From NCBI GenBank assembly GCA_000004985.1, contig GG738907.1: DNA of 64,000 nucleotides; one strand, given 5' to 3'. Positions 39,124 through 64,000 of the stretch are shown piece by piece. Under the pieces are notes generated by a model. The model saw nothing but the letters and a program-made list of their open reading frames with translations. It did no database searches and was not told where the DNA came from. Numbering within the stretch: position 1 is the first letter of the stretch; each line of letters starts with the position of its first letter. Source of the stretch: Naegleria gruberi. Taxonomy: Eukaryota. The position numbers and the translations under genes were made by a program.

Positions 39124-39229
39124 CTTGATAAAAATAATTTAAAAATATATTAAATAAATTAAATATAGTATTAAATATATTATTGTAAAGTATTAATAAA
39201 TATATTAAATTTGTAAATATAAAACATAC

Positions 39230-44984: not shown

Positions 44985-45390
44985 TTTTTTTTGAGATATT
45001 TGAAATGTGATTATAATCATAGAGATGTTGATGAATATTGGTGTTGATAGATATGCCTCATTAGTTTGTTGTTTTGGTGTTGGGTAAAACGATGATTGAT
45101 AATTATTGTAATGAGAGAAATTGAAATTTCATTTGAAAAATTGTAATGAATTTACGCACATACGTTGATGAATGATTAAGGAATTATCGAACATTGAGGG
45201 AATGAAGAACAATGTTTTAAATATCTTTAAATTTTTGATGTTGTTTTAAAGAGGGGATTCTCGGAAGTTTCAACTCCGAATCAAATTCAAAAAAAAATAG
45301 GCTTCATCTTGTTGTTTTCAGAGAGAGAGAAAACATTAGCCTTTGGAAGAATTTTAGTATTTTATTAAATAGTATTAATAGTAAATTATA

Positions 45391-45456
45391 ATGGTATTGG
45401 GAATATTTGGATCATCGGTACGAATTGAAGATGGACGTTGTTCATTAGCACATCAG
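45391..45456 (+). CDS. LRRC51-like leucine-rich-repeat protein, exon 1
   Basis: ATG 45391, MVLGIFGSSVRIEDGRCSLAHQ, then a CAG|GTAGGA donor. The 150-nt AT-rich intron ends ..atatag. Confidence 0.5.
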
Positions 45457-45606
45457 GTAGGAAGATTTTATTAAACAAATTAAATATTTATTTCATCATC
45501 ATCATTATATTAATAATTCTATCATGATTATTATTATCGGAAATATTAAAATAATATTGTTAATATATATTTGTTAATATATATTTAAAATATATATTTA
45601 ATATAG

Positions 45607-46128
45607 AATTTAACTCAAGTACCATATGAATTATTTTCTAAAAAACAATTAAAGAAAGTTATTGATTTGGATTTATCACATAATGAAATTGAATTTCAAG
45701 GATTACAACATTTAAATCAATTTGAAAATTTAAAAACACTTGTTTTGGATCATAATTTAATTAAGAGTGATGTAAATTTAAATATGGGAAAACCATTACC
45801 TAATCTTGAATTATTATGGGTAAATTCGAATAATATTACTAATTTATCGGCGTTTATTGAAAGAGTTAAAGTTGTTTGTCCAAATTTACAATATTTCAGT
45901 ATGATGGCTAATAAGGCTTGCCCAAACTTTTTTGTTGGAGGAACTCCAGAATTATATCAAGATTATAGACATTTTGTAATTAGTAGATTACCAAAATTAA
46001 AAGTTTTAGATCAAAATAATGTTACAGATGAAGAACGTCAACAGGCTCTTCAACATTATGCAAATTTGAAAATTCAACCAACAACTAATACAGTGACAAG
46101 TAATCATTTAAATAGACCAAGTATTTAA
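45607..46128 (+). CDS. LRRC51-like leucine-rich-repeat protein, exon 2
   Basis: NLTQVPYELFSKKQLKKVIDLDLSHNEIEFQGLQ...LVLDHNLI...LWVNSNNITNL..., an LRR array followed by an LRRcap-like CPNLQYF..YRHFVISRLPKLKVLDQNNVTDEER. It is in phase with exon 1. The ORF-track M is a TTG. Confidence 0.7.
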   Translation, partial: NLTQVPYELFSKKQLKKVIDLDLSHNEIEFQGLQHLNQFENLKTLVLDHNLIKSDVNLNMGKPLPNLELLWVNSNNITNLSAFIERVKVVCPNLQYFSMMANKACPNFFVGGTPELYQDYRHFVISRLPKLKVLDQNNVTDEERQQALQHYANLKIQPTTNTVTSNHLNRPSI

Positions 46129-46187
46129 TAATTATATTTAATAATTGAATAAAATGTAAATAAAAAAATATTAAAAAATAGATATAT

Positions 46188-48875: not shown

Positions 48876-49224
48876 TTTTTTTGAAGGCTAGAAAAATTAA
48901 ATGATGAAAAACACGGAGTGCAATTTCAAATATTGATATTCATATATTATTATTAGTAATAAAAGAATCATCATCTGATGCAATTTGCTCTTGTCAATAT
49001 TTGTAGTATGAATAATGGTAGTACTATTCAATTTTTTGTTTTTAATTGACTTGTTGATGACAATTTTCAAAACCTTTTGTGCGTTAATGAGAATCTAGCT
49101 TTCAGAATGAGATTTTCCATTGAGGTTGGCTTTATTGTTAATAGTCAACTTATAAAGGACAATGGTACTAAGAATAATCAGTAGTTTCCCGCCTTTTCTT
49201 TGTACAAAAAACAAACTTGAAAAA

Positions 49225-50913: not shown

Positions 50914-50914
50914 A

Positions 50915-51811
50915 TTATATGTATTCATCATCTAATAAGACTCGAGCATTATTTTGAGTATGTAAATAGTCAACTGTACTATTGACCAATTCGTAAACTT
51001 TCTTATTTTCACAAACATTGACATGTTTTATGAAAATTTTGTAAAAATCGTCCTTAAATAAAATGTTTGTTGTTGAATCCTCATTAAATGCAATAGTATT
51101 AAATTCTGTGAGTGCTGTATATTTATACCTTTCAATGATTTTTGTCATTTCCTTTTCATCAGAAACCTGTACACTGTCATTACATGTTACTACACTGTTA
51201 ATACACAAAAATATTGGAATATCTTTGAAAAGTTCCTTATATTCATTTAGAATATCCTTGAGTAATAAAATAGATTTTTTAAAGTCGTGATATATGGATA
51301 TTTGTAATTTTGTTATTCCATTGGAAAGGGTTATTTCATCGTTAAAACTCAACACTGATTCATATTCTTTTTTTTCCTCTTTTTCCTCCACTATCTCTTT
51401 AAGAATGTCTATTTCAATTAAATACTTGGCAACAAAGAATATACCATGTGTTGATTTGTAATAATCACTCCACATTGACTTTAAATTTCCACCAATATCC
51501 CATATCTTTAAAAAACAGTAATTTGCATAATTAAAATTAAATGTATTCTGTCCAATAGTTGGATTATAGAATTTCCGACTTGATTTAGAGTATAAATTAT
51601 TAAAATTAAATTGAAATATAGTTGATAGAGGCGATTTAGAGTCAAGTGTCATTATTTTAGAAGGTGAGTGAGAAAATATTTCCTGTTTGTTCATGTTTTT
51701 AATTGTTTGTAATAATTCTGTTTTCCCACTATTCTCCATCCCGATCAATAACAAATTGTAGGTTGGTGTAAAGCTGAGTTTTTCATAAACCAACTCGAAT
51801 AGTGATAACAT
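50915..51811 (-). CDS. divergent Arf/Rag-like small GTPase fold protein lacking a canonical NKxD box
   Basis: ATG at 51811. G1-like LLLIGMENSGKTELL; G3-like KIWDIGGN. No NKxD or HKxD. 298 aa with Lys/Glu-rich insertions. Confidence 0.6.
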   Translation of the reverse strand: MLSLFELVYEKLSFTPTYNLLLIGMENSGKTELLQTIKNMNKQEIFSHSPSKIMTLDSKSPLSTIFQFNFNNLYSKSSRKFYNPTIGQNTFNFNYANYCFLKIWDIGGNLKSMWSDYYKSTHGIFFVAKYLIEIDILKEIVEEKEEKKEYESVLSFNDEITLSNGITKLQISIYHDFKKSILLLKDILNEYKELFKDIPIFLCINSVVTCNDSVQVSDEKEMTKIIERYKYTALTEFNTIAFNEDSTTNILFKDDFYKIFIKHVNVCENKKVYELVNSTVDYLHTQNNARVLLDDEYI

Positions 51812-51955
51812 TTTTAGGCTTTTTTTATTATTATTTGATGATCAAACAATAATGAAATAGAAAAACTTCCGATTCGTGTTCTTCTTCAGCACCTGTAACA
51901 TCATGCATTGTACAATCAAAATATTGGACCATCGAGTCACCTCTCTAATTCAAAA

Positions 51956-52525
51956 TTATTCTTTTGGTTCTGGAATTTTGAAAGGACTTGTTCCATTATT
52001 AATTTGTAAAAGTACAACTCTAGGATCTTCTCCATTCACTTTACATCCTATACTAACACAAGTTCCTAATACTTCCTTTACTTTTGCTGTTAATGTTCTT
52101 GCTGTTTTACTAGATTTCTTAGTTTGTGCTATATGAATTAATTGATCAAAAGTCAAATTTCCATCATGAACAACATGATATTGTTTGTCACTTGGAGCCT
52201 CTCCTAAATTTGATATAACAAATAGAGGCGAATGTTCTGCCAATTCCAAATCAATCATATCCCTAGATTTTACAATAAATCTAACAGTAATATGTTTAGC
52301 AGACCAATTCAAAGCCTGAACCAATTCAGTAATTCTCTGAGAGATTACTTTAGGCGAAATTCCGAGTGGACCAAACACTGGTGCAAGTTTACCAGGATTT
52401 GGTTGTTGAGATCTCACTTTCACTACTAAAATAAGTGGATTATCTATTGAGTAATTTTTAGAAGTGGGCACGAGTTTTGTAGTAGTGCCAAAGCCTAAGG
52501 ATGGCGAGTAGGTTAGTGTTGACAT
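51956..52525 (-). CDS. uL11-family ribosomal protein (L11/L12 fold), divergent with an N-terminal extension; probably the mitochondrial paralog (MRPL11-like)
   Basis: ATG at 52525 in aaaaaaaATG context. PNPGKLAPVFGPLGISPKV matches the uL11 N-domain (PPVGPALG / APKIGPLG). ...GNLTFDQLIHIAQTK matches bacterial/organellar ...QLQEIAQTK. ...AKVKEVLGTCVSIGCKVNG matches the eukaryotic IKEILGTAQSVGC. Identity to cytosolic RPL12 is only about 35%. A 30-aa Ser/Thr/Lys-rich N-terminal presequence is present. Confidence 0.7.
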   Translation of the reverse strand: MSTLTYSPSLGFGTTTKLVPTSKNYSIDNPLILVVKVRSQQPNPGKLAPVFGPLGISPKVISQRITELVQALNWSAKHITVRFIVKSRDMIDLELAEHSPLFVISNLGEAPSDKQYHVVHDGNLTFDQLIHIAQTKKSSKTARTLTAKVKEVLGTCVSIGCKVNGEDPRVVLLQINNGTSPFKIPEPKE

Positions 52526-53042
52526 TTTTTTTGGATTTATTGTTAAGAATGAACTTTGAATCTCCACTTGGAAATGTACTTTGTAAATTGTTTAATGTAG
52601 TTGTATTACAAAATTGTAATCAACCTTAAAGAATATTAATGCATTCTTGTAAACTATTACAGATCCAGGAAAATCAGTGATTGGATCACTTCAACGTTAA
52701 CAACCCTTCACTCATCACTGTTTGTTATCTCCTTTCCATTTTGTTCGTCTTTTTCTTGACTGAAGACAAGTCCAACGTTATTTTCAGAGTTGATGAGTTT
52801 CAACCTTATCATCCTCTTATTGATCATAATCGTCATCTTCTTTGCAACAGTAAATAATTTAAACTTTCAATGCTTTTCTCACAACAACAACACTCTCCAA
52901 TATATTTTCAATGAACAAGTGGCGCCAATTCCAAGCTAACTAAAATTCCCTTCTTCTTCTTCATGCTAACGAAAACGATAACAATTCGCTCACCACCATC
53001 TAGGTTCAGTTATTTGGCAGCTTGAAAAAATAATACAAAAAA

Positions 53043-53289
53043 ATGGGCAATCAACCTGGCAAAAATAAGCAATATAGAAAGAATGAGTTGAAGAAACTCG
53101 TAGAGATCACCCACTTTGATATGGATGAAATCATGAAGCTTTATGAACAATTTATTTCTATTTCATCCTCTCGTGAAGATGATGGTGTGATAGATAAAAA
53201 TGAATTTAAGGAAGCTCTTGGCTTGAAGGATTCTCTTTTCGTTGATAGAATGTTCTCCTTGTTTGATGGTGATAATGATGGTACTATTG
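53043..53289 (+). CDS. calcineurin-B / CHP-like EF-hand protein, exon 1
   Basis: MGNQPGK (Gly2, an N-myristoylation-type start), then ...FKEALGLKDSLFVDRMFSLFDGDNDGTIG (EF-hand loop DGDNDGTI). Donor G|GTATGT at 53290. Confidence 0.8.
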
Positions 53290-53396
53290 GTATGTAAATT
53301 ATTGTATAGTAACGAATTAATCATAGGCTAATTAATACAATAATAATAATATTATTTTATTCGTGATGATGAACTTGCAATAACCGAAAATTGTAG

Positions 53397-53641
53397 ATGT
53401 AAGAGAATTCATTTGTGGATTGTCTGTATTTTGCGAAAAGGGAACCATTGATGAAAAACTCAAGTTCTCTTTCAGAATTTATGATTTTGATAAAGATGGT
53501 TGTATTAGCAAGGAAGAATTGTACAAACTTTTAGAAGCTTCACTCGTTGAAAACTCACTAGGTATTCCACAAGAACAATTATCATCATTGGTTGATGCTA
53601 CTTTTGCTGAAGCTGATACAGACGGAGATGGCAAAATATCT
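53397..53641 (+). CDS. calcineurin-B / CHP-like EF-hand protein, exon 2
   Basis: Acceptor ..ttgtag. Encodes DVREFICGLSVF...LKFSFRIYDFDKDGCISKEEL...ADTDGDGKIS, two more EF-hand loops. Donor TCT|GTAAGT at 53642. Confidence 0.8.
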
Positions 53642-53716
53642 GTAAGTTGTTTTAATTAGAGATTTCATGTATCTAATCTACTTGTTTAAACAATTCAACA
53701 ACAACAACAATAATAG

Positions 53717-53797
53717 TTTGAGGAATATCGTGTACTTGTTACTAAACATCCAACTATGATCGGAAATATGACTATCAATACCTCAATTAAGAAGTAA
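53717..53797 (+). CDS. calcineurin-B / CHP-like EF-hand protein, exon 3
   Basis: Acceptor ..taatag. Encodes FEEYRVLVTKHPTMIGNMTINTSIKK*. The three exons sum to 573 nt (190 aa), matching the CHP/CNB size. Confidence 0.75.
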   Translation, partial: FEEYRVLVTKHPTMIGNMTINTSIKK

Positions 53798-53817
53798 ACC
53801 AAATTGTAATTTTTAAT

Positions 53818-55515
53818 TCATTCTTCAAGCTTGGGGAATTTCATTTCCCTTATCATTTGAAACATCAAATCTCTATAAACTTCTCCTTTTCTAATAGTAG
53901 ATTTGTAAGAAAACATCCAGACGTGGTGTTTTTTCTCACTTCTCTGATCATCAACTCTATGAATTATAACAACTAATTCATACATTACACTCTCCAAAGA
54001 GACGGAATGTGCAACCTGTAGCCAATTTACGTGAATGGTTTTTGTATCCTTCTTGATTGCAACAACTTCTGGAATTGTTTCGTCAGTATCTTCTTGATTA
54101 CTGTTGCTAGTACTTGTTGATAGTGTATTATTTTGTAAATCGAATGATCTCAAATCGCTAATAATCTCAACATTCTGATCCATAATCAGACTTTTAACAT
54201 ACTGGGCAACATCGTGTTCAGACATTTCGCTCGGGGTATTTTCAGGTGACAATAATTGAGATATCTCAAATCGGTCAATGTGAACATCATTTGGGTCGGT
54301 CGATGTACTTGATTTGAATTCTAATGGACTTGTAAAAACAATGGAATCACTTGTCTTATTTTCTTGCCATCCAAATGGAACTCTTAACCACAAATATTCA
54401 AATAGATCACTGTAGAGAACATTTAACATTTCAAATCCTTGCACAAACTCTGAATTGGTTACAATTTGATGAGCTATGGATTGATTCTTCAATGCACAAT
54501 TTGAAATATATCTTACAACAATTGCACTCGAACTACCAATATCCACAACACAAACATATTGAAATAGAGTATTTCCAGATTCAACATATTGAAATAGGAA
54601 TGTATAATAGTAATATCCCAATTTTGTAGAACTTTCTAATGGAATATCAGTGAAATTCTTATACTTGCTCATACTATTCACATAAACTTCTCTCTGATCA
54701 GCCAACCCAACTTCCAACTCAATCTTTAAACAATCTAATCGATGTTCTGGATCATAAATTTCAGTTGGTGATCGACACAACACTCTCATCTCATCTATTT
54801 TTTCTAATCTCCATCCAATTGGATAAAACAAATTTCCAATATATTTAATTCTTTCACTTTTTTGAAAATTAGTTTTAGAAATTACAGTTGAATGAACACT
54901 TTCTAATCCATCAATGTTTTGAAATGTAGTATTGTTATTATTATTCATATGAATGTTATTAATTTTAGAATTCTTTTCATCTTGTGAATGAAAAGCTTCA
55001 ACTAATTCTTCATTTGGATAATCACAAAGTGTTGAAAATTTCATTTGAACCACTAAATTTAATTCTCCATGTTGTACATTTTCCAATTTTAGATTAAATT
55101 TTCCATTATCAGAATTTAAAACATCAATAATTGAAAGTTTACAATTTCCACAAAAATCATCTTTGAAAAAATCTTTATCCCAAACTTGAATTTCAATAAA
55201 ATCCAATTTATCCTTATTAATACAATGAATATTTTCATTATTTGGTGTTGAAATTGTAATATTTTGTAATTTTGCTAAATTATTTGGCATTTTGTAATGT
55301 GATTTTTTCACTTGTAAATTAAATTCATCTCCCAAATGACCAATATTATACGCACAAGGTAATAATTGTTTTTGTAAAGTATTAATAGTATTATTGTAAT
55401 GATTATTTAATTGTGCATCAAGTATCCACATGAAAGTTTCATCATATTTCGGATTTAGATTTTTAAATTTAATGCTCGACATTAAAGATATTCCTCCATA
55501 ACTAATAATTACATA
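53818..55515 (-). CDS. C2-domain protein, exon 2 (rest of C2 plus a long C-terminal region)
   Basis: After a 47-nt intron (acceptor ..aaatgtag) the reading continues YVIISYGGISLMSSIKFKNLNPKYDETFMW (C2 consensus DPYV..K..T.....NP.W.E.F.F). The exon is exactly 1698 nt, in frame to the stop. Confidence 0.75.
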   Translation of the reverse strand, partial: YVIISYGGISLMSSIKFKNLNPKYDETFMWILDAQLNNHYNNTINTLQKQLLPCAYNIGHLGDEFNLQVKKSHYKMPNNLAKLQNITISTPNNENIHCINKDKLDFIEIQVWDKDFFKDDFCGNCKLSIIDVLNSDNGKFNLKLENVQHGELNLVVQMKFSTLCDYPNEELVEAFHSQDEKNSKINNIHMNNNNNTTFQNIDGLESVHSTVISKTNFQKSERIKYIGNLFYPIGWRLEKIDEMRVLCRSPTEIYDPEHRLDCLKIELEVGLADQREVYVNSMSKYKNFTDIPLESSTKLGYYYYTFLFQYVESGNTLFQYVCVVDIGSSSAIVVRYISNCALKNQSIAHQIVTNSEFVQGFEMLNVLYSDLFEYLWLRVPFGWQENKTSDSIVFTSPLEFKSSTSTDPNDVHIDRFEISQLLSPENTPSEMSEHDVAQYVKSLIMDQNVEIISDLRSFDLQNNTLSTSTSNSNQEDTDETIPEVVAIKKDTKTIHVNWLQVAHSVSLESVMYELVVIIHRVDDQRSEKKHHVWMFSYKSTIRKGEVYRDLMFQMIREMKFPKLEE

Positions 55516-55562
55516 CTACATTTAAATAGTTAAATAATTTAAATATTTTGTAAAAAACTTAC

Positions 55563-55748
55563 AGGATCACTGAGTCCATTTTCATCCATCGGAATAATAT
55601 TTGAACCATGTTTTAATTTAACAACTAATCTATCATAATGTTCAACATTTAATTGTACTTTTTGATGTTTTGACATTTTTTTGATTTTTTTAGACAGTTG
55701 ACTTTCAAATCCAACATTATTGATTGTTACTCTCCCAAAAAGATCCAT
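55563..55748 (-). CDS. C2-domain protein, exon 1
   Basis: ATG at 55748. Encodes MDLFGRVTINNVGFESQLS...LVVKLKHGSNIIPMDENGLSDP, the C2 beta1-beta2 region with a GLSDP|YV core. Donor CCT|GTAAGT. Confidence 0.75.
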
Positions 55749-55770
55749 TTTCAAGAATTATTTATAAAGT

Positions 55771-56901
55771 TTACAATAAAACAATCAAACAAATAATCAT
55801 TACAATAACCATCAATGATTGCATAATATTACAATTTGCCAAACTTGCAATTCTCCACTTTTCATCTAAAACCCATTGATTCATTCCATTCATTGAACTT
55901 CTCATTGCAACTGTCAAATTTCCAAATGCCCAAGTTTTCCAACTGTCATCTTGAGGATAGAAATATTCACCAACTTTTGAATTAACAAATGGACAAAATT
56001 GTGCACTTCTATCTGGTAAATTTTGATAAAATCTACAATTCAATTGCATTAAAAAGTAATTTTGATAGGCATCTTGTGGAAATGTTCCAATTTCCCATGC
56101 AGTTGGAACGATGGTTAAATTGGCCTCACTTCCACTCATTAAGGCATGATCCTTAATGAAATGACCAAAGTATTTACCACTTGGGAATGGAAATAAATTG
56201 TCGTGAATGTATTCATTCTTGAGGAGGTATTGCTTAGCGAAGGGGATCCATTCAGGATCGAACATGGCATACACATTTCCATACTCGCCAACAGCACTGT
56301 GCAAGTCAATATATAAAACCTTTCTACTCTTGGTATATTCGGAGGAGTAACCCTTCAAGAGTTGATTCAAAATGATTTTGACTTGCTTGGCAGTCCATTC
56401 TTCAGTGGTTCCTGCGTAGGCAATTCCAATTTGTCTGTGAATTTGTCCAATGACTGATGATTGTGTGAATGCTGGAAGACCGACCTTTGCCAATAGAGTG
56501 TAAAAGTAGTTGACTGCTTGTGCTTGAACTGTGTCCAAGTGAAGATGTGAAATATTCATACCATCAATGAATTGTTCCAATAAAACGTTCTTTGAAATTT
56601 CCCAACCAGGTGCATCAATGTAATGTTCATTCAGATTCTTCAACATGTCGACATTGTTTTCATTTTCCTTTGTTGCATAACTGGCTCCGTATGGATTTAA
56701 CATGTGAATGTGAACAGGATAGGTGTTATCAGGAAGATTGAATTGATACTTGGTGTCGTTCTTAATCATGGCAATTTGAATTGGACTACCAACAAATCCC
56801 TCTTGTCCATGGACACCAGAGAATGTTAGGAAAACATTGGATTCAGCCTTATTCTTCAACATGTTGGCACGTTCTTCATGGAAGCATGCAGACATGTACA
56901 A
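55771..56901 (-). CDS. M14-like zinc-carboxypeptidase-fold (AstE/AspA / DUF2817-like) secreted or GPI-anchored protein, main segment
   Basis: Contains an HxxE motif (FSGVHGQEGFVGS) and a later IDLHS His. The C-terminus is hydrophobic (LMVIVMIICLIVLL). C-ending codon bias. The ORF-track M is a TTG; the frame is open upstream to about 57020. Confidence 0.6.
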   Translation of the reverse strand: MYMSACFHEERANMLKNKAESNVFLTFSGVHGQEGFVGSPIQIAMIKNDTKYQFNLPDNTYPVHIHMLNPYGASYATKENENNVDMLKNLNEHYIDAPGWEISKNVLLEQFIDGMNISHLHLDTVQAQAVNYFYTLLAKVGLPAFTQSSVIGQIHRQIGIAYAGTTEEWTAKQVKIILNQLLKGYSSEYTKSRKVLYIDLHSAVGEYGNVYAMFDPEWIPFAKQYLLKNEYIHDNLFPFPSGKYFGHFIKDHALMSGSEANLTIVPTAWEIGTFPQDAYQNYFLMQLNCRFYQNLPDRSAQFCPFVNSKVGEYFYPQDDSWKTWAFGNLTVAMRSSMNGMNQWVLDEKWRIASLANCNIMQSLMVIVMIICLIVLL

Positions 56902-57152
56902 TTTTTCATTATTAAGACCAAGAATGGAAGGAAGCTCATACTCTGAATACTTGTAACCACTTGTTGCTTGACAAACTTGTTTAAACTTTTGATCGGCTTC
57001 AACATAGTTCGATGAAAAGTAGTCGAGTTAATAAGTTTGGCTGTTGTTACTAATGACAACATGATGGTCATAGCCATGAGAAAGGCCATGCATGCAGTAA
57101 AAGTTGTAGCTGAAACTAACTTGTTAGTGATGATACCTCTTGAGAAGGACAT
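56856..57152 (-). CDS. same gene, N-terminal signal-peptide segment
   Basis: ATG at 57152 in aaaaaaacATG context. Encodes MSFSRGIITNKLVSATTFTACMAFLMAMTIMLSL..., a signal-peptide-like segment. It joins the main segment either by a candidate 65-nt intron (GTAACA..AAAAG) or by a frameshift. Confidence 0.45.
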   Translation of the reverse strand: MSFSRGIITNKLVSATTFTACMAFLMAMTIMLSLVTTAKLINSTTFHRTMLKPIKSLNKFVKQQVVTSIQSMSFLPFLVLIMKNCTCLHASMKNVPTC

Positions 57153-57735
57153 GTTTTTTTCTTCAATGAAAAATATCATTGCAGGCCCAGTTGAGCTTTT
57201 TAAATGTTTATCATGGCTGTTTTAAGACTGTACTAACTCTTTGCTGTAGTGTTGATGTATTACAGTTCCCTTTGTAAAAAAGGATGAATGGTCATTGAAG
57301 ATAACATGCTTAATTGGAAGGTGTTACTTTTCATCTAATTGAACTTGGAACTCTATATCTTACTACACACTTATTGAGGCAAATGATGAATTTGGTAGAA
57401 ATTACAAATTGCCAGTAAAGGAACATAATTCCCTTTCGTTGGTATGTCTCTAATTTCACCACCTCCATCTTTCTCCTCAAGAGAAAGAGAGCAAACTTAA
57501 TTAGCTTTCATCAATTCCGATTTTTATCATCATAGGAACAATGTTCAAACTGTTCAGGTATCATAATGGCTTTTTCTTTTTGTGGTTAAAGATTTCAAAA
57601 TGTCCATTCCTCAAAGAATTGACTCAACGAAGTTTTTATTCAAATACATATTTAATCCATTATTATTATGATTGATTCATTGATTGGTTGTTGATTCATA
57701 CATATTGAATCATTTTCAGCATCTAATTGAATCAA

Positions 57736-58260
57736 TTAGAAACAATTAGTCAATACTTTAATATCTTGAGCAGCATCTGGTTGAGAACCATCATTGGCCT
57801 CTCTCATCAACTCTGGTAAATTACCAACAATTGTAACATGTAATTCATCACCTTTAACAGCATATTCATTCAAATTACAACCATTGCTTTGAGTAGATGA
57901 TGGATCATGTTTAATGTGGAGAATCATCTTTTTCAATTCCATAAAAGCTTCCTTACAATCTGGATCTTTACAGAATTGAACTGGTAAATCTTCACACAAA
58001 TAGGTAATTCTTCTAGAGAATTTCAAATAGAGAATGACATTCTCTTTGGCACTCAATTCTTCTCTTCTGGCTTTCCATTTGAGATCTTCTGGAAGAGATA
58101 GAATTGATTCCCAATCAATAAGAAGGATCATGTTTGGATTGACCTTTTGCAATTCTTTAATCTTGTCAGTAATCTTGTAACTGAACAAATCACGAGCTAA
58201 TTTCTTGAAAGCCAAACCACCATTCTTTGGCAAGAATTCTTCTTCATAATTTACCAACAT
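57736..58260 (-). CDS. hypothetical 174-aa protein
   Basis: ATG at 58260 in aaaaaaATG context. Complex sequence (…ILLIDWESILSLPEDLKWKARREEL...CEDLPVQFCKDPDCKEAFMELKKMILHIKHDP...). I recognise no family. Confidence 0.5.
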   Translation of the reverse strand: MLVNYEEEFLPKNGGLAFKKLARDLFSYKITDKIKELQKVNPNMILLIDWESILSLPEDLKWKARREELSAKENVILYLKFSRRITYLCEDLPVQFCKDPDCKEAFMELKKMILHIKHDPSSTQSNGCNLNEYAVKGDELHVTIVGNLPELMREANDGSQPDAAQDIKVLTNCF

Positions 58261-58590
58261 TTTTTAAACTTGTTTTTTAATTGTTGTAAAGTGAGCAGAC
58301 TGAATGCTGTCAATATTTAAACTGTTTTAACCTCCGCATGTTTAACATTTATCCATGTGTGTTGATTGAATGGTTGTTGGTTTTTCCATTGGATTTTGGA
58401 AAGGGATAATTATTGGAATCGGCTAAAGTTGGAGTCCACCCTTGACTTGATTACTAATGGGAAAATCATGGATTTGTCCATTCTGGGAAGTTGATATGCT
58501 AAGGTTGACTAGAATTTAAACAATTCATTTCGAAATGCATACTTACATTTCATTACAATTGAATTACAAATACATGGAAATTATACAATG

Positions 58591-59046
58591 CTATAATAAA
58601 CAATTTTTGGATTGTTTCATTCTTTTCTTCATTTGCTTTTTAGAAATTTCAATAAATTTAGAGTCATATTTTACAATCTCTTTTAAGAGAGTTAGATTAT
58701 CATTAGATCCATATCTATTTCGTCTTACACATTCTTCAAATAGCAATTTAGTATTTTCTCCTGTTTTGGCACTGGATGTAAAAATTGCAGTATTTTTCAA
58801 TTGATTTCTTTCAATAATCGAATTAATCAAATTTGTATATTTCTCAATCACTTGCTCTCTATTCGAATCGTTCAATAAATCAACCTTATTTAATGCAAAT
58901 ATAACTGGAAAATAATTAATTTCCCTACACTTCAATTTAATTACTTGTTCCACCACCCTTTCTGATTGTTCCACTGTCTTTTCATCCACAACATCACAAA
59001 CATTAATAAACGTATCTCCTGATCTCATGTAATAATCTGTCATTGC
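58591..59046 (-). CDS. Ras-family small GTPase, exon 3
   Basis: After a 47-nt intron it encodes AMTDYYMRSGDTFINV...ALNKVDL...TSAKTG... (G4 NKxD, G5 SAK). Exon lengths sum to 1005 nt (334 aa). Confidence 0.8.
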   Translation of the reverse strand, partial: AMTDYYMRSGDTFINVCDVVDEKTVEQSERVVEQVIKLKCREINYFPVIFALNKVDLLNDSNREQVIEKYTNLINSIIERNQLKNTAIFTSSAKTGENTKLLFEECVRRNRYGSNDNLTLLKEIVKYDSKFIEISKKQMKKRMKQSKNCLL

Positions 59047-59093
59047 CTTAATAAGTAATATTAATAAACACATTTAGAATTTAAAACACGTAC

Positions 59094-59245
59094 AGAATAA
59101 TCTTCAATGCCAGCAGGATCTATCACATCTATCATGACAGGTAAATTATCAACTTGTAATAGTTTTCTATATGGTTCATCTGTAGTTGGATCGTAGAATT
59201 CTATAAAATGTCCATGGAAGCAATTGATTGTAATGGAAGATTTAC
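59094..59245 (-). CDS. Ras-family small GTPase, exon 2
   Basis: After a 51-nt intron it encodes (G)KSSITINCFHGHFIEFYDPTTDEPYRKLLQVDNLPVMIDVIDPAGIEDYS (P-loop completion, switch I YDPTxxxxYRK, G3 DxxG). Donor TCT|GTACGT. Confidence 0.8.
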
Positions 59246-59296
59246 CTGTTCCCAATGTAGAGATGAGTATTAATTTCAAATATTATTAATACTAAC

Positions 59297-59693
59297 CTAC
59301 TCCTCCTGCTCCAATCATTACTATCTTTGTTTCTTCAACTTTATTCCAAGGTTGTTTGCAAATATTGAATTTGATGAAAATAGCAATCAATACTTTTCTC
59401 TTCAATTCTCCCTTTACAATTTCATCTTTCAATAAGCTAAATTCATTTTCCAATAGTGGATTATATCCAATACAAGTTTCCCATACTTTCCACCAAAATT
59501 TGTCGAAATAAATAGTCATCTCTGGCATGGAAGAAATTTTCCTATTTAATGATTGAAAATTGAGAATAAATTTAATATGTATTTTAATTTCTTGTGATCG
59601 TTGCTGAATGGACAAAAGATTCGTTCCGAATTCTAAAATATGTTGAAGAATTTCAGAGGGAAGTGATAAAAATTGAGTTGAGCAGTTTTGCAT
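59297..59693 (-). CDS. Ras-family small GTPase with about 125-aa N-terminal extension, exon 1
   Basis: ATG at 59693 in aaaaaaaATG context. Ends ...KIVMIGAGGVG. Donor G|GTTAGT. Confidence 0.8.
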
Positions 59694-59819
59694 TTTTTTT
59701 CAAATTTTCAAAAAAAATAGTTTTTTGAGTTGGTTGGGGAAGTGAGGTGTATTGGAATAATGTTTGAAAATTGAAAATAATGATTTGGGTAGATAATTAT
59801 TAATAAAATTAAAATAACA

Positions 59820-59890
59820 GGGGGCGAGGGGGAATCGAACCCCCGGCCACAGCTTTGGAGGCTGCGATGTTACCATTACACCACCGCCCC
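59820..59890 (-). tRNA. tRNA-Trp (anticodon CCA)
   Basis: Minus strand GGGGCGGTGGTGTAATGGTAACATCGCAGCCTCCAAAGCTGTGGCCGGGGGTTCGATTCCCCCTCGCCCCC. The acceptor stem is 7 bp with one G-U pair. A-box TGGTGTAATGG, B-box GGTTCGATTCC. Anticodon stem GCAGC/GCTGT with loop CTCCAAA, giving anticodon CCA. It is followed by TGTT. Confidence 0.85.
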
Positions 59891-60259
59891 TGTTGAAATA
59901 ATTTATTATTTTCCATCATTCACAATATCTTAAAATAACGTCTATTTTACATTTCACTTGCTTTTTGAGATTTGTTTCAAACTCTTGCACTACAATATTT
60001 TTCTGCCACTTTCTTATTAAACGACTTGAGGGGGCGCTGTGCTTATTTTCCAGCCAAAATTTTTGTAATGATGAGCCATACTGTTGTTGTCGTTTGGTGG
60101 GATGAAATATTGTGGTGGATCTATTATATCCAAGTTTACTTAAAAAAAATGGAAGAACCAGCAACAACACTCACTATGATTGATCTTCATCCAATCTCTC
60201 CGAATTTATTTACAAAATTGAAAGAAAAATTTAAATCACCTTCTCTTGTGGAATTTTCC

Positions 60260-60330
60260 CATACAAATTGATGCAATTTCTAATAGTTCCCATATGTTCT
60301 CATACAAATTGATGCAATTTCTAATAGTTC
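60260..60330. repeat. 30-bp perfect direct repeat (catacaaattgatgcaatttctaatagttc) in two copies 11 bp apart, immediately upstream of the 60338 ATG
   Basis: The copies are at 60260..60289 and 60301..60330. The spacer is ccatatgttct. Confidence 0.9.
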
Positions 60331-60337
60331 TTTTAAT

Positions 60338-61072
60338 ATGGCAATTTGTAGGGAATTTAATTATTTAGTTACTGGTTCTCATGACTCTTTAGAAATCTAT
60401 GATTTGATCACTCATCAACCAATTCAAGAAACAATTCATTTTAGTGAAGGAATTTATGGAATTGATTTTGAAAGGGAAAATTCAGGACAGTGGAACTTGA
60501 TACTCTCCACCTGGAATAATTATTTTGTAAAATATGATTTCAATAGAATATTGAGTGAAAAGAGTTTTGGTGAACCAATTTTTAAAGTTCCAATTAAATT
60601 TGCTTGGGCTGTCAGATGTTTTAAAACTGAACTTTATGTCATTGATTATGATTCAAAAATATTTGTATTCGATTTGAAATCAGGCTTAGAAAAAACAGAG
60701 ATTACTGTTGGATTGGAAGATGAAATGGTGGATATGGTTTTCACACCAGAAGAGGAAATGATTGTTTGTGGAAGTAATCAGTGGCACATTCTCAAATTTA
60801 ATGAAAATTCTTCTTGTTGGGAAAAGATTAAAAGCTATTCGAATGAAAATGGACCAGTGAGAATTAATAGATGTTTTGGTGTTTGGTATGAAAGAAAGAC
60901 GAAACTAATTTATTTGACCGATAATGGGGGCAAAATATTCATATTCGATAGAGAACTCAATCTTGTGAAGGAAATCAAAGTATCTGGACTCTATGAGATT
61001 GTAATTAATGAACAGAATGGAGAAATGTTCGTTTGTGATAAAGATAAAAATCAACTAATCATTTACAAATAA
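60338..61072 (+). CDS. WD40-like beta-propeller repeat protein (hypothetical)
   Basis: ATG at 60338. 244-codon ORF beginning EFNYLVTGSHDSLEIYDL (a WD-type GSHD..I..YD). A 40-codon ATG ORF upstream at 60150..60271 (MEEPATTLTMIDLHPISPNLFTKLKEKF...) could be a 5' exon. Confidence 0.6.
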   Translation: MAICREFNYLVTGSHDSLEIYDLITHQPIQETIHFSEGIYGIDFERENSGQWNLILSTWNNYFVKYDFNRILSEKSFGEPIFKVPIKFAWAVRCFKTELYVIDYDSKIFVFDLKSGLEKTEITVGLEDEMVDMVFTPEEEMIVCGSNQWHILKFNENSSCWEKIKSYSNENGPVRINRCFGVWYERKTKLIYLTDNGGKIFIFDRELNLVKEIKVSGLYEIVINEQNGEMFVCDKDKNQLIIYK

Positions 61073-61264
61073 CACTTAACAATCCTCTGATAGAAGCTTA
61101 GATAATGCTAGGAGTTGTTTCTCAACAAGATAGTTCAGAGTAACCAGAAGAAAATCAAACCAGAGAATGATCTTAACAGACCTTAATACTTGATATTATT
61201 TAACTGCTTCTAAAAAATGTCCACTTGTGCACTGCATTAAATATGATATTGTGAATAAATGAAT

Positions 61265-61327
61265 AAGTTCAACAGGGGCGGTGGTGTAATGGTAACATCC
61301 AAAGCTGTGGCCGGGGGTTCGATTCCC
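61265..61327 (+). pseudogene. tRNA-Trp(CCA)-derived locus with an 8-nt internal deletion (probable tRNA pseudogene), inverted relative to the 59.8-kb copy
   Basis: Identical to the minus-strand tRNA-Trp except that GCAGCCTC is missing. That sequence is the 5' half of the anticodon stem plus two loop nt. The result is a 63-nt sequence that cannot form a cloverleaf. The 3' flank CTGTTATTTTAATTTTA and the 5' flank TTCAACA are shared with the other copy. Confidence 0.6.
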
Positions 61328-61429
61328 CCTCGCCCCCTGTTATTTTAATTTTACTCACTTAACTTTTAATGGAACAACTCGGCTTTTCAGTCTTGCAAAT
61401 AGGAACTTTCGGAATTAAAATTAAAAAAA

Positions 61430-61533
61430 ATGATCAGAAAGTGGGAATTGAATGATGGCAGGATTATGCAAATTGAACAAGATTTGGACATTGTAAATAA
61501 AGAATTCGGAGCCATTGTATGGGATTGTGCATT
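61430..61533 (+). CDS. METTL21/FAM86-type protein-lysine methyltransferase, exon 1
   Basis: ATG at 61430 in aaaaaaaaATG context. Encodes MIRKWELNDGRIMQIEQDLDIVNKEFGAIVWDCA(L). Donor TT|GTATGT at 61534 after a split codon. Confidence 0.8.
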
Positions 61534-61613
61534 GTATGTAAATGATGATCAATGTAAAATTGACCTTTTCCAATATAACTATATTTTGATCAATTATTTG
61601 AAAATACAAAAAG

Positions 61614-61684
61614 GGTATTGTCTAAATATTTGGAAAATGAAAAAGTATTTCCGAAAGGCTTTTTTAAAGGAAAAACAATTTTAG
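61614..61684 (+). CDS. METTL21-type methyltransferase, exon 2
   Basis: After an 80-nt intron (acceptor ..caaaaag) it encodes (L)VLSKYLENEKVFPKGFFKGKTIL, the canonical VWDxAxVLxxYLE...F.GK.VLELG block. Donor G|GTAAAT. Confidence 0.8.
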
Positions 61685-61728
61685 GTAAATAATATCTGAT
61701 TTGTTTAAGAATAATTAAAAATCAAAAG

Positions 61729-62228
61729 ACTTGGGATCGGGAACTGGATTTATTGGAATTTTATTAATGATCAAAGGAGCAACTGTTCACTTTACTGATC
61801 GTCAAGTATTAATTCCACTCATTGAAAAGAATATCGATTTAAATTGTAAGATTGTTGAACAGGAACAAGAAGATAATGATATTGATGAAAAAGCTCCAAT
61901 TTTAGCAAATCAATTTAAATGTTTTGAGTATTTATGGGGTGAACCAAATGAAATTGTGGAAAATACTGAATATGATTTTGTAATTGGATGTGATTGTATT
62001 TATGAATCAAAAGATATGTGGATGCCACTCTCAAAAGCATTACATGAACAGTTGGCAAGATCAAAGAATATTATTCTAGCTCATGAATTGAGAAGTCAAA
62101 AAGATTTCTCCTTCTGGCCTCATATTCAAGAAACATTTGAAGTTGAAAGAGTACCTACAGAATTATTGGACGAATTTTGGAGATGTGAAGCAATAAGAAT
62201 ATTCTATTTGACATTTAAATCAAATTGA
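61729..62228 (+). CDS. METTL21-type methyltransferase, exon 3
   Basis: After a 44-nt intron (acceptor ..atcaaaag) it encodes (D)LGSGTGFIGILLMIKGATVHFTD (SAM-binding motif I), ...DFVIGCDCIYE (motif DxxY) to the stop. The total CDS is 675 nt (224 aa). The ORF-track M is a TTG. Confidence 0.8.
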
Positions 62229-62576
62229 AGTGATTTTTAATCTTCTCCCTATAAATGAAATCTTTCCACAAATATTTAGTCTTTTTGATTTCGAAATTTG
62301 AATTTTTAACATGGAGAGTTTTGTAACTTTCCTAAGTAACTAGCCCAAATTTGTGTGTTTGAATTTAACAATGAGTTGAGACTAGTACTGAATAAAAATT
62401 TCCAATCCACACAAACCACTTCATGGAACTTATTTCATCGGTGATAAATGGGATAATTGTCTAATTGTCAATAAAATTTTAAATTCTGGATATTTCAAAT
62501 AAATTAGACATAAAATATCCAATGTTTTTAAAGAATTTGAAAGTTAGTGCCAAGATTGAATACTTTTATTAAGGGG

Positions 62577-63407
62577 TTAACATCTTTGACTACACTTATT
62601 GAGTGGTGATTTTGAATCATGGAATAGGAAATGCATGGTTGAGAAGATGGAAAGTGCACTTTCGTTTTTCATGCATTCCTCTGAACAAAAGTTTTTACAA
62701 AAGAGAGCTGGGACGAAAGGTCCTTCCCATTGACCAAGTGGCCAACACTTTTGGAAATGATGAGTAAAGAATAAAATAGCAGAGACAAAACCATCATTAC
62801 CATACATTGGAACAACTGGCAAGAGAGTCAAACTACTCTTTGTCATTGTCGGATGATTCAGTAAATTGAGCCCATAATGCCTTCCCATCCCCGTTAGACA
62901 AGATCCTTTCGTATAGGATTTTTGTTGAGCTTGTGTTTCTGTGAGTGGAATCTCAACAGGTCTTTGACTATTTGGTGCTAAAATCAAACGATCACCAATT
63001 AAACCTCCAGAATGATCAAAAGCTCCAGAACATGCAAAGGAGGGATCACGAGTTGCAATTTCAATTTGATATTCTTGGTGTCCAACTTTGTGCCAGTACA
63101 ATTCTTGAGTGTTTTCATGAATTCTTGCTCCAAAACCAGATAATTGACCTGCTTTGGTGTAATAGACAACAACTCGATCATTGATAAAGCCATAGCCGAG
63201 ACCAGGGACGCATGCACCGTTATCAGTTTCGATTGGTTTAGACCACTTGGATGTGTACATGGCAGTTGTCAAATTCAATGGAATAGGACTCTTACTGAAG
63301 AAGGTGTGTTGCAAACGATCACCCAATCCAATAAATGAACCAGATGATTGTTCTGAAAGTACAACAGAAACAATCAAGACGAATATCAGAAGAATCACCT
63401 TGCACAT
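62577..63407 (-). CDS. secreted cysteine-containing hypothetical protein
   Basis: ATG at 63407 in aaaaaaaATG context. Signal peptide MCKVILLIFVLIVSVVLS. 276 aa with about 14 Cys. No family recognised. Confidence 0.55.
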   Translation of the reverse strand: MCKVILLIFVLIVSVVLSEQSSGSFIGLGDRLQHTFFSKSPIPLNLTTAMYTSKWSKPIETDNGACVPGLGYGFINDRVVVYYTKAGQLSGFGARIHENTQELYWHKVGHQEYQIEIATRDPSFACSGAFDHSGGLIGDRLILAPNSQRPVEIPLTETQAQQKSYTKGSCLTGMGRHYGLNLLNHPTMTKSSLTLLPVVPMYGNDGFVSAILFFTHHFQKCWPLGQWEGPFVPALFCKNFCSEECMKNESALSIFSTMHFLFHDSKSPLNKCSQRC

Positions 63408-64000
63408 TTTTTTCAATAAGATAACGATTCTCAAAATGAGTAGGTCCAAAATAGAACCAGGAGTTGAAGTGACAGTCCTTCCTCTGGATGTTTCACATTC
63501 GATTATTACAAAAAATTTGTAAACTAACTTGGTTGTCTATTACAAAGAGTTTAAACATTTACTTTACAATTTATTTAATTATCTAACCCACAACCATCCC
63601 ATCAAAACACCATTTATAGGCATTGGGTTGTAACAACGGTAGTAATAAACACCAGTTCCTTACCATGAGGTTTTCCATCATAGGAACCACATTGAGAATG
63701 TGTTGGTGGGATAGAAATATTTAAATGCTAATGTAATTAAACATTTATTGTAAATATAAAACAAATAAATAATTAACAACATAAAGTTGTGTTCAATTGT
63801 TGATCCAAATGACAAAAATCTATAAGTGCTAGTATATTGTACAGTTGAGCTTCACCCTTTTTGTCGTATAAAAGTAACTCTCATAAAATTCAACACCTTT
63901 GGTACTGACACATGGACACAGAATGAACAATCAACGAACGATTTATCTTTACATACTGTTGCCACTTCCGTAGTAAAATTACGAGAAATTGGTTCTATAC

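What the first reader, a model, noticed from the sequence alone, without database searches (positions are those of the whole stretch)
59094..59245. Ras-family GTPase with Gln61 replaced (DPAGIEDY) and a 125-aa N-terminal extension
The P-loop (GAGGVGKSS), switch I (YDPTTDEPYRK), NKVD and SAK boxes are canonical Ras. However G3 reads DVIDPAGIEDYS instead of DTAGQEEYS. The catalytic Gln (Ras Q61) is an Ile and the conserved Thr is a Pro. This predicts very low intrinsic and GAP-stimulated GTP hydrolysis, similar to the constitutively GTP-bound Rnd/RhoE-type behaviour but in a Ras-like protein. The protein also carries a non-repetitive 125-aa N-terminal domain (MQNCSTQFLSLPSEILQHILEF...), whose opening LPSEILQHIL resembles an F-box-like LPxEIL motif.
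Basis: partly seen in the sequence, partly recalled or inferred. Interest (0 to 1): 0.5.

Follow-up and report, generated by a model that had tools for sequence, protein, structure and literature searches.

The report
Naegleria Ras GTPase with F-box-like head
This is an already annotated Naegleria gruberi gene for a Ras-type molecular switch that lacks the glutamine needed for fast GTP hydrolysis. It carries an N-terminal head that begins like an F-box, so it may link Ras-type signalling to protein ubiquitination, but that link is inferred, not shown.

Summary
A three-exon gene on the minus strand (58591..59693) encodes a 334-aa protein. It has intact Ras G1, T35, DxxG, NKxD and SAK motifs, Ile at the Ras-Gln61 position, Pro at Thr58, and a 122-aa N-terminal extension.

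The organism is Naegleria gruberi, not Dictyostelium. The protein is 100% identical to XP_002671236.1, annotated "ras family small GTPase". Herman et al. 2021 list it as plain "Ras" with no extra domain.

It belongs to a Naegleria-restricted multigene family: F-box-like start, helical linker, Ras domain, conserved C-terminal extension, then usually CaaX. Every complete member I tabulated has a non-canonical residue at Ras 12/13 and/or at 60/61. Six read DTAGP. One keeps Gln61 but has G12A/G13R.

The window copy is a derived member. It has Ile61, an altered effector loop (TDEP instead of IEDx) and a shortened C-terminus (CLL instead of CaaX).

Slow hydrolysis and SCF binding are inferences. Verdict: a new variant of the published Naegleria F-box–GTPase theme, of moderate interest.

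The parts
58591..59693 (-). Whole gene (ATG to stop), three exons, 334 aa. It equals Naegleria gruberi XP_002671236.1, 'ras family small GTPase'.
   Evidence: Splicing and translation. 100% identity and coverage to P0001. Accessions.
59297..59693 (-). Exon 1: the N-terminal extension plus the first strand and the first six residues of the P-loop (..IVMIGAGGVG).
   Evidence: The phase-1 intron after GVG is conserved in the first exons of many family members (P0037, P0038, P0040, P0044, P0045).
59246..59296 (-). Intron 1, 51 nt, GT..AG, splitting the P-loop Gly133 codon.
59094..59245 (-). Exon 2 (the finding's coordinates): KSS of the P-loop, switch I and the G3 motif.
59047..59093 (-). Intron 2, 47 nt, GT..AG, between ..EDYS and AMTDYYMR..
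   Evidence: The same position is seen as a retained in-frame 42-nt intron in P0004/L001.
58591..59046 (-). Exon 3: the rest of the GTPase domain, the C-terminal extension and the stop codon.
59622..59672 (-). F-box-like helix-1 motif, residues 8-24 (FLSLPSEILQHILEFGT).
   Evidence: Pfam F-box-like residues 8-22, E 0.052. It is the most conserved block of the N-terminal alignment (L11, P12, E14, I19, L20, F22). hhalign gives probability 92.7. The column-shuffle null gives 0 of 200 at or above the observed score.
59328..59693 (-). N-terminal all-helical domain, residues 1-122: F-box-like start, a variable insert, FQSLNRKI, FDKFWWKVWE, and a linker with the conserved LKRKVL motif.
   Evidence: Alignments A1, A4, A6. 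AlphaFold2 with 21 sequences gives pLDDT 83.4 and pTM 0.76, with helices at 13-24, 33-49, 51-55, 57-74, 79-93 and 98-111.
59238..59312 (-). G1 / P-loop GAGGVGKS (residues 128-135, interrupted by intron 1). The Gly12 and Gly13 equivalents are retained.
59163..59195 (-). Switch I YDPTTDEPYRK (residues 150-160). The Thr35 equivalent is kept. The effector loop reads TDEP where the paralogues and Ras read IED(S/V/T).
   Evidence: Motif table and alignment to M-Ras.
59094..59120 (-). G3 / switch II start DPAGIEDYS (residues 175-183). Asp57 and Gly60 equivalents are kept, Thr58 is Pro, and Gln61 is Ile (codon 59108..59106).
58879..58890 (-). G4 NKVD (residues 236-239).
58765..58773 (-). G5 SAK (residues 275-277).
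58594..58719 (-). Family-specific C-terminal extension (residues 293-334: ..RYGSNDNLTLLKEIVKYDSKFIE.., then a basic stretch). It ends ..KNCLL instead of the family's CaaX (CSVM, CSIM, CSLM, CNVM).
   Evidence: Family C-termini and sequences.

Best explanation
Shown:
- The locus is an intact, already annotated Naegleria gruberi gene. It belongs to a multigene family that I found only in N. gruberi, N. lovaniensis and unassigned environmental contigs.
- The family derives from Ras and has four parts: an N-terminal helical domain of about 120 aa whose first helix is an F-box helix-1 motif (LPxEI..HIL.F); a Ras GTPase domain with all nucleotide-binding motifs; a conserved C-terminal extension of about 40 aa; and, in most paralogues, a polybasic CaaX tail.
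- Every complete member I tabulated has a non-canonical residue at the positions Ras needs for GAP-assisted hydrolysis, namely 12/13 and/or 60/61.
- The window copy keeps Gly12 and Gly13 but has Ile61 and Pro58.

Inferred:
- These proteins bind GTP normally but hydrolyse it slowly, and they do not respond to arginine-finger RasGAPs. They would therefore be controlled by abundance or partner binding rather than by a fast GTPase cycle.
- The N-terminal domain docks onto Skp1, making the protein part of an SCF ubiquitin ligase. It could act as a nucleotide-state-dependent substrate receptor, or it could couple the GTPase to its own turnover. This would be the Ras/Cul1 counterpart of RhoBTB/Cul3.
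- The window paralogue is a derived copy. Its changed effector loop and the loss of the four-residue CaaX suggest a different partner and no classical prenyl membrane anchor.
For: - Gene model and identity.
- Ras membership and the Gln61 equivalence.
- Family architecture and motif table. Six members read DTAGP. The window gene reads DPAGI. P0034 reads DSAEHE. P0057 keeps DTAGQ but has the P-loop GEARVGKT. Other members read GSERVGKS, GYKKVGKS or GCRKSGKT.
- Restriction to Naegleria-like sources: an HMM scan of 1.84 billion representatives gave 20 hits at E<=1e-3. Eighteen are family members, mostly first exons, including N. gruberi and N. lovaniensis proteins.
- F-box evidence from Pfam: 13 of 21 members hit Pfam F-box-like. 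PRANC, F-box, F-box_4 and F-box-like_2 are the only other families hit more than once or belonging to the same clan.
- F-box evidence from profiles: hhalign gives probability 92.7 and E 4.2e-7 against Pfam-validated F-boxes. The helix-1 block scores 32.9 against a shuffle maximum of 18.3.
- The short member XP_002668120 matches F-box-like profile positions 2-36 of 47 without the insert.
- The family profile picks up a plant-type multi-F-box protein through the motif SSLPDELLHHILSF.
- Literature: Herman et al. 2021 report F-box fused to Rab, Rho, Ran and Galpha GTPase domains in Naegleria and propose GTPase-dependent ubiquitination (PMC8296547 supplement).
- Literature: all 17 tested H-Ras codon-61 substitutions lower GTP hydrolysis about 8-fold (Der et al. 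1986, as summarised in PMC6813200).
Against: - No member reaches the Pfam gathering score for any F-box family. The window protein scores 13.8 bits against 24.3.
- Similarity beyond helix 1 is marginal. The second half scores 10.9 against a null of 7.8 +/- 1.7, and 10 of 200 shuffles reach it.
- A 12-20 residue insert separates helix 1 from the putative helices 2 and 3.
- Foldseek against the PDB found nothing (best E 4.4).
- The family profile found no F-box in PDB sequences.
- Herman et al. ran SMART, Pfam and CDD and list this gene as 'Ras' with no extra domain.
- No biochemical data exist for GTP hydrolysis or Skp1 binding.
- Rap (Thr61) and Rheb show that a GTPase without a catalytic Gln can still cycle with a GAP that supplies the residue in trans (established knowledge).
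- The loss of CaaX and the changed switch regions could instead mean relaxed constraint.
Confidence: 0.55

Rival explanations
1. The N-terminal domain is a lineage-specific helical domain that no longer works as an F-box, or never did. It would act within the molecule or in oligomerisation, for example by packing on the GTPase or on the C-terminal extension as an autoinhibitory or scaffolding module. The LPxEIL motif would be a relic or a convergent helix cap.
For: - AlphaFold2 predicts a compact self-contained helical bundle (pTM 0.76) without Skp1.
- Only helix 1 shows significant F-box similarity.
- Foldseek and the HMM search of the PDB find no F-box.
- The blocks FWW and LKRK(V/I)L, which are not F-box features, are as conserved as the LP motif.
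Against: - The helix-1 motif is the Skp1-contacting part of F-boxes (established knowledge). It is the most conserved N-terminal block across members that share only about 30% column identity.
- F-box clan families are the only recurrent Pfam signal.
- The short member aligns to 35 of 47 F-box-like positions.
- Naegleria demonstrably fuses bona fide F-boxes to other GTPase classes.
Confidence: 0.25
2. The window copy is a decaying or functionless paralogue in a family that evolves by birth and death. On this view the unusual residues (Ile61, Pro58, the TDEP effector loop, CLL instead of CaaX) reflect relaxed selection rather than a new function.
For: - It is the only complete member I tabulated without a four-residue CaaX, and it has the most altered switch I among the close paralogues.
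- No orthologue closer than 57% identity was found in any database searched.
- A related gene on L002 carries an in-frame stop in the GTPase domain.
Against: - The ORF is intact across three exons with canonical GT..AG introns.
- G1, Thr35, DxxG, NKxD, SAK and the conserved N- and C-terminal blocks are all intact.
- The changes cluster in the partner-binding switches rather than being spread evenly. That pattern fits a change of partner.
Confidence: 0.12
3. The protein is a normally cycling switch. A dedicated GAP of the RapGAP or TSC2 type would supply the catalytic residue in trans (an Asn thumb), so the missing Gln would not mean a GTP-locked state.
For: - Gly12, Gly13, Thr35, Asp57 and Gly60 equivalents are all retained in the window protein, so the active site is otherwise canonical.
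- Rap1b is among the best solved relatives, and its match covers the full GTPase domain (E 2e-26, residues 120-297).
- Naegleria has three Rap1 paralogues (Herman et al. supplement), which implies RapGAP-type regulators (inference).
Against: - Other family members have bulky or charged residues at positions 12/13 (GSERVGKS, GYKKVGKS, GCRKSGKT) or have lost Gly60 (DSAEHE). This argues that hydrolysis is dispensable across the family.
- No candidate GAP was identified here.
Confidence: 0.25

Closest known systems
Canonical Ras-family GTPases (M-Ras, H/K/N-Ras, Rap1, R-Ras, Ral)
   Same: The GTPase domain is 35-42% identical. It has GxxxxGKS, the YDPT switch I threonine, DxxG, NKxD and SAK, and a Pfam Ras score of 87 bits.
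   Different: Gln61 is Ile and Thr58 is Pro. The effector loop reads TDEP instead of IEDS. It has a 122-aa N-terminal domain and a C-terminal extension of about 40 aa. It ends in CLL rather than CaaX.
Naegleria F-box–GTPase fusions (Rab-like, Rho, Ran, Galpha) described by Herman et al. 2021 (PMC8296547, Supplementary Material 4 and Table S8)
   Same: [quoted passage not shown] One Rab-like clade also has a CaaX. The family shows the same lineage-specific expansion.
   Different: That paper lists F-box fusions with Rab, Rho, Ran and Galpha, not Ras. This gene and its paralogues appear there as plain 'Ras' with no extra domain. Here the F-box signal stays below the Pfam threshold and is interrupted by an insert.
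RhoBTB (atypical Rho GTPase fused to BTB domains; Cul3 adaptor)
   Same: The proposed logic is the same: an atypical GTPase domain without normal catalytic residues fused to a cullin-ligase adaptor domain (established knowledge). RhoBTB is present in Naegleria.
   Different: The adaptor domain differs (BTB/Cul3 against F-box-like/Skp1-Cul1), as do the GTPase subfamily (Rho against Ras) and the domain order (GTPase at the N-terminus in RhoBTB). This is functional analogy only, not homology of the adaptor part.
TbFRP (FYVE–F-box–GTPase of Euglenozoa, PMC3593210)
   Same: It is a Ras-like GTPase preceded by an F-box in another member of the Discoba.
   Different: [quoted passage not shown] Its authors found no Naegleria orthologue. 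The window protein has no FYVE domain and is Ras-like.
H-Ras codon-61 mutants and naturally Gln-less GTPases (Rap Thr61, Rnd, RhoH)
   Same: The catalytic Gln is replaced. In H-Ras every tested substitution, including Ile and Pro, lowers hydrolysis about 8-fold.
   Different: Here the replacement is a natural trait shared by a family, not a somatic mutation. Its biochemical consequence has not been tested.

Membership tests
Ras family small GTPase (Pfam PF00071) | Profile score above the curated threshold | tested here: met
   87.2 bits against a cutoff of 21.6, E 1.2e-24, residues 123-292. Best PDB relatives are M-Ras and H-Ras, E about 1e-28.
Ras family small GTPase (Pfam PF00071) | G1 P-loop GxxxxGK[ST], switch I Thr35, G3 DxxG, G4 NKxD, G5 SAK | tested here: met
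   GAGGVGKS, YDPT, DPAG, NKVD and SAK are all present.
Ras family small GTPase (Pfam PF00071) | Catalytic Gln61 following DxxG | tested here: not met
   Ile179 aligns without gaps to M-Ras Gln71, the H-Ras Gln61 equivalent. Most paralogues also lack Gln. P0057 keeps it.
Ras family small GTPase (Pfam PF00071) | C-terminal CaaX prenylation box | tested here: not met
   The protein ends ..SKNCLL, with Cys at -3. Paralogues end CSVM, CSIM, CSLM or CNVM.
Ras family small GTPase (Pfam PF00071) | GTP binding and hydrolysis | not testable with these tools
   This needs a biochemical assay.
F-box domain (Pfam clan: PF00646 F-box, PF12937 F-box-like) | Profile score above the curated threshold | tested here: not met
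   The window protein scores 13.8 bits against 24.3 (E 0.052), matching profile positions 1-15 only. The best family member reaches E 2.2e-4.
F-box domain (Pfam clan: PF00646 F-box, PF12937 F-box-like) | Helix-1 motif LPxE[IL]L..I...L | tested here: met
   The motif LSLPSEILQHILEF is present. L, P, E, I, L and F are conserved in at least 90% of the 11 members of alignment A1. hhalign gives probability 92.7 and E 4.2e-7 over 20 columns. 0 of 200 column shuffles reach the score.
F-box domain (Pfam clan: PF00646 F-box, PF12937 F-box-like) | Helices 2 and 3 (L..l..VcKrW..l..d..lW) at canonical spacing | tested here: inconclusive
   A relaxed hhalign run pairs I..fQSLnkKI and FWW with the F-box second half, but 10 of 200 shuffles reach that score. 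Most members have a 12-20 residue insert. The short member XP_002668120 matches profile positions 2-36 of 47.
F-box domain (Pfam clan: PF00646 F-box, PF12937 F-box-like) | F-box three-helix fold | tested here: inconclusive
F-box domain (Pfam clan: PF00646 F-box, PF12937 F-box-like) | Binding to Skp1 | not testable with these tools
   No complex prediction or experiment was available.
TbFRP-type FYVE–F-box–GTPase (Euglenozoa) | N-terminal FYVE domain and a Rab18-like GTPase | tested here: not met
   There is no FYVE hit in Pfam. The GTPase is closest to Ras and M-Ras. The TbFRP authors found no Naegleria orthologue.
Naegleria F-box-like–Ras family (this report; listed as 'Ras' in Herman et al. 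Table S8) | Shared N-terminal blocks (LPxEI..HIL.F, FQSLN.K, FWW, LKRK.L), a phase-1 intron after P-loop GVG, and a C-terminal block (DNL.LLK..I..D) | tested here: met
   Alignments A1, A4 and A6. First exons end at GVG. 57% and 44% identity to P0002/P0034 and P0003/P0035.

The most novel reading that the evidence does not exclude
Naegleria has evolved a family of Ras-derived, hydrolysis-impaired GTPases that are themselves F-box proteins. They would be built-in, nucleotide-state-dependent substrate receptors of SCF (Skp1-Cul1) ubiquitin ligases, membrane-anchored by CaaX in most paralogues. This would be an independent Ras/Cul1 counterpart of RhoBTB/Cul3. The window copy would be a soluble variant with a changed effector specificity.
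Probability: 0.3. Interest if true: 0.6.

Novelty: new variant of a known kind. Interest (0 to 1): 0.38.

Why it matters
If the F-box-like head really binds Skp1, Ras-type switches in Naegleria would feed directly into ubiquitin ligases. That would extend to the Ras family the 'GTPase-dependent ubiquitination' idea that Herman et al. raised for Rab, Rho, Ran and Galpha fusions, and it would be a convergent parallel to RhoBTB–Cul3.

The family also offers a natural series of substitutions at the oncogenic Ras positions 12, 13 and 61: Pro, Ile, and Ala/Arg. These could inform how Ras-like domains work without fast hydrolysis.

If the head does not bind Skp1, this is simply one more divergent, lineage-specific Ras paralogue in a genome that has about 80 of them.

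Tried and rejected
- The Dictyostelium origin is rejected. The protein is 100% identical to a Naegleria gruberi protein.
- The idea that Gln61 loss is unique to this gene is rejected. It is a family trait.
- My interim claim that no family member has Gln61 was wrong. P0057 (XP_002674622.1) keeps DTAGQ.
- A family N-terminal profile searched against PDB sequences gave only a chance hit, CapV at E 0.27.
- The first AlphaFold2 run with 8 sequences was too poor to use (pLDDT 56). The second run with 21 sequences was usable.
- Foldseek against the PDB gave no match. The afdb50 library was not available.
- The library-wide HMM hit to a plant-type F-box protein (E 4.9e-5) rests on four repeats of the helix-1 motif, each only 3-13 bits. 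It adds nothing beyond helix 1. The hit to P0055 is a repetitive coiled-coil and I treat it as spurious.
- The look-up of encoding contigs had no record for P0002.
- There is no other copy of the gene in the window (tblastn).
All 12 hit F-box and F-box-like.
- dN/dS was not attempted. The nearest paralogue is 57% identical, so synonymous sites would be saturated, and no orthologue was found.

Full report
**1. What is at the coordinates**

The finding's span 59094..59245 is exon 2 of a three-exon gene on the minus strand. Exon 1 is 59693..59297. Intron 1 is 59296..59246 (51 nt, GT..AG). Exon 2 is 59245..59094. Intron 2 is 59093..59047 (47 nt, GT..AG). Exon 3 is 59046..58591, including the stop.

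The spliced CDS is 1005 nt and encodes 334 aa. The P-loop GAGGVG|KSS is split by intron 1.

A search of 5.8 billion proteins returned a 100% identical, full-length protein. It is Naegleria gruberi strain NEG-M XP_002671236.1 / EFC38492.1 / D2VXE0, named 'ras family small GTPase'. So the organism is the heterolobosean Naegleria gruberi, not a dictyostelid. The window's 19-33% G+C and its roughly 50-nt introns fit this. The public gene model uses the same splice sites.

**2. The GTPase domain**

Pfam Ras matches residues 123-292 at E 1.2e-24 (87 bits against a cutoff of 21.6). The closest solved structures are M-Ras, H-Ras, K-Ras, Rap1b, R-Ras and RalA, with E from 1e-28 to 1e-26.

The ungapped alignment 'dvidpagiedysam' / 'DVLDTAGQEEFSAM' puts Ile179 (codon 59108..59106) at the position of M-Ras Gln71, which is H-Ras Gln61. 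It puts Pro176 at Thr58.

The following are intact:
- G1 (GAGGVGKS, with the Gly12 and Gly13 equivalents present)
- Thr35
- Asp57 and Gly60
- NKVD
- SAK

The effector loop reads YDPTTDEPYRK where Ras and the close paralogues read YDPTIED(S/V/T)YRK.

The protein ends ..SKNCLL. The cysteine is three residues from the end, not four, so this is not a canonical CaaX box.

**3. It is one member of a family**

The close relatives are N. gruberi proteins:
- P0002 and P0034: 57% identity
- P0003 and P0035: 44% identity

Metagenome contigs L001 and L002 carry further members.

Herman et al. 2021 (PMC8296547) re-annotated more than 350 Ras-superfamily genes of N. gruberi. Their Table S8 lists XP_002671236.1 and these paralogues as 'Ras' with no additional domain. 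It also gives corrected sequences for at least eight more members with the same N-terminal blocks.

An HMM of the N-terminal domain scanned over 1.84 billion representative proteins found 20 hits at E<=1e-3. Eighteen of them are family members, mostly first exons that end at the P-loop 'GVG', which is the conserved phase-1 intron position. They include N. gruberi XP_002674622.1 and N. lovaniensis XP_044546668.1.

The family architecture is:
- an F-box-like start (LPxEI..HIL.F)
- a variable insert
- FQSLN.K
- FWW
- a helical linker with LKRK(V/I)L
- the Ras domain
- a conserved C-terminal block (..DNL.LLK..I..D..)
- a basic stretch and CaaX

**4. The catalytic positions across the family**

In the motif table six members read DTAGP (five DTAGPEE(Y/F), one DTAGPQDF). 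The window gene reads DPAGIEDY. P0034 and P0002 read DSAEHEY, so Gly60 is lost too. Several others are degenerate.

One member, P0057, keeps DTAGQEEF, but its P-loop is GEARVGKT, which corresponds to G12A and G13R. Other P-loops are GSERVGKS, GYKKVGKS, GCRKSGKT and GDSTVGKS.

Every complete member I tabulated therefore has a non-canonical residue at 12/13 and/or 60/61. A conventional N. gruberi Ras in the same table keeps GDGGVGKT and DTAGQ.

From the H-Ras literature, all 17 tested codon-61 substitutions reduce GTP hydrolysis about 8-fold. Q61I is moderately transforming and Q61P is not (Der et al. 1986, as summarised in PMC6813200).

The inference is that the family, including the window gene, has given up fast GAP-assisted hydrolysis. 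This has not been measured. Rap-type GAPs that supply an Asn in trans remain a possible way around it (established knowledge).

**5. Is the N-terminal domain an F-box?**

Taken alone, the window protein gives only E 0.052 on Pfam F-box-like, covering profile positions 1-15.

Across 21 family N-termini:
- 13 hit F-box-like (best E 2.2e-4)
- 3 hit PRANC
- 2 hit F-box
- 2 hit F-box_4
- 1 hits F-box-like_2
- every other Pfam family is hit by a single member

The shortest member, which lacks the insert, matches profile positions 2-36 of 47.

I assembled 12 bona fide F-boxes and verified each against Pfam. hhalign of the family profile against them gives probability 92.7% and E 4.2e-7, but over only 20 columns. 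With a relaxed alignment threshold the match extends as expected: I..FQSLNkKI pairs with L..VcKrW, and FWW pairs with LW.

A column-shuffle control separates the two halves. The helix-1 block is far outside the null (32.9 against a maximum of 18.3, 0 of 200). The second half is marginal (10.9 against 7.8 +/- 1.7, 10 of 200).

AlphaFold2 with 21 sequences gives a confident all-helical domain (pLDDT 83.4, pTM 0.76). Structure and sequence searches with it gave the following:
- Foldseek against the PDB finds nothing.
- The family profile finds no F-box among PDB sequences.
- Its library hit to a plant-type F-box protein rests on four copies of SSLPDELLHHILSF.

My reading is that helix 1, the main Skp1-contacting element, is clearly F-box-like and is the best conserved part of the domain. 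The rest is compatible with a divergent F-box that has an insert and is followed by a helical linker, but this is not demonstrated.

**6. Context in the literature**

Herman et al. report that the F-box is the most frequent extra domain fused to GTPase domains in Naegleria. They list fusions with Rab, Rho, Ran and Galpha. [quoted passage not shown] They suggest GTPase-dependent ubiquitination.

Ras is not on their F-box list, and this family carries no domain note in their table.

TbFRP of Euglenozoa is a FYVE–F-box–Rab18-like GTPase with no Naegleria orthologue.

**7. Most likely mechanism**

*Shown:* an intact Ras-derived GTPase that should bind guanine nucleotide, has Ile at the catalytic Gln position, and is fused to a conserved helical head that begins with an F-box helix-1 motif.

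*Inferred:* hydrolysis is slow and insensitive to arginine-finger GAPs. The head docks to Skp1, so the protein either presents GTP-state-specific partners to an SCF ligase or is itself regulated by turnover. This would be analogous to RhoBTB/Cul3.

The window paralogue differs from its relatives exactly at the partner-binding switches and at the lipid-anchor signal. That suggests a change of partner and of location. Less probably, it reflects relaxed constraint in a family evolving by birth and death; the related gene on L002 has an in-frame stop in its GTPase domain.

**8. Verdict**

The new element is modest: a Ras-family branch of the Naegleria F-box–GTPase theme, with systematic loss of canonical catalytic residues. 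I rate the interest as moderate (0.38).

Noticed in passing
window 59820..59890 (-): A tRNA-Trp (anticodon CCA) gene lies 127 bp upstream of the GTPase gene's ATG, on the same strand, between it and the divergently oriented neighbour.
   Followed up: no
window 60338..61072 (+) and L002 1318..2058 (-): The 244-aa ORF next to the window gene is homologous (29% identity, E 3e-17) to the 246-aa ORF next to a paralogous F-box-like Ras gene on metagenome contig L002. The orientation differs: head-to-head in the window, tail-to-tail on L002. Pfam gives only sub-threshold beta-propeller hits. This may be a conserved gene pair, or chance if the ORF family is large.
   Followed up: partly
window 60260..60288 and 60301..60329: An exact 29-bp direct repeat (catacaaattgatgcaatttctaatagtt), with a 41-bp period, lies just upstream of the neighbour ORF's ATG. 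I read this directly from the sequence.
   Followed up: no
window 50915..51811 (-): A 298-aa ORF encodes an Arf/Arl-like GTPase. It has the P-loop GMENSGKT and reads WDIGGN where Arf proteins have WDxGGQ, so this is a second GTPase in the window without the catalytic Gln. It also has long inserts. Pfam Arf scores E 2e-11 over residues 81-128 only.
   Followed up: partly
L002 about 893..895: The paralogue on L002 has an in-frame stop inside the GTPase domain (..CAVNDKY*LREIRQ..), where relatives read ..CAVNDESSLRDVR... It is either a pseudogene or an assembly error.
   Followed up: no
P0057 = N. gruberi XP_002674622.1: This family member keeps Gln61 (DTAGQEEF) but has the P-loop GEARVGKT, which corresponds to Ras G12A and G13R. 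It shows that the family's ancestor probably had Gln61.
   Followed up: partly
P0002 = N. gruberi XP_002669149.1; L001 1915..2376: The public model XP_002669149.1 (281 aa) starts at MPEMERYF. It lacks the F-box-like start that is present in its near-identical neighbour P0034 and in the L001 relative (P0004), so it is probably truncated at the N-terminus.
   Followed up: partly
window 1..40000 versus 40001..64000: The left part of the window is markedly more AT-rich (19-29% G+C) than the right part (29-33% G+C).
   Followed up: no
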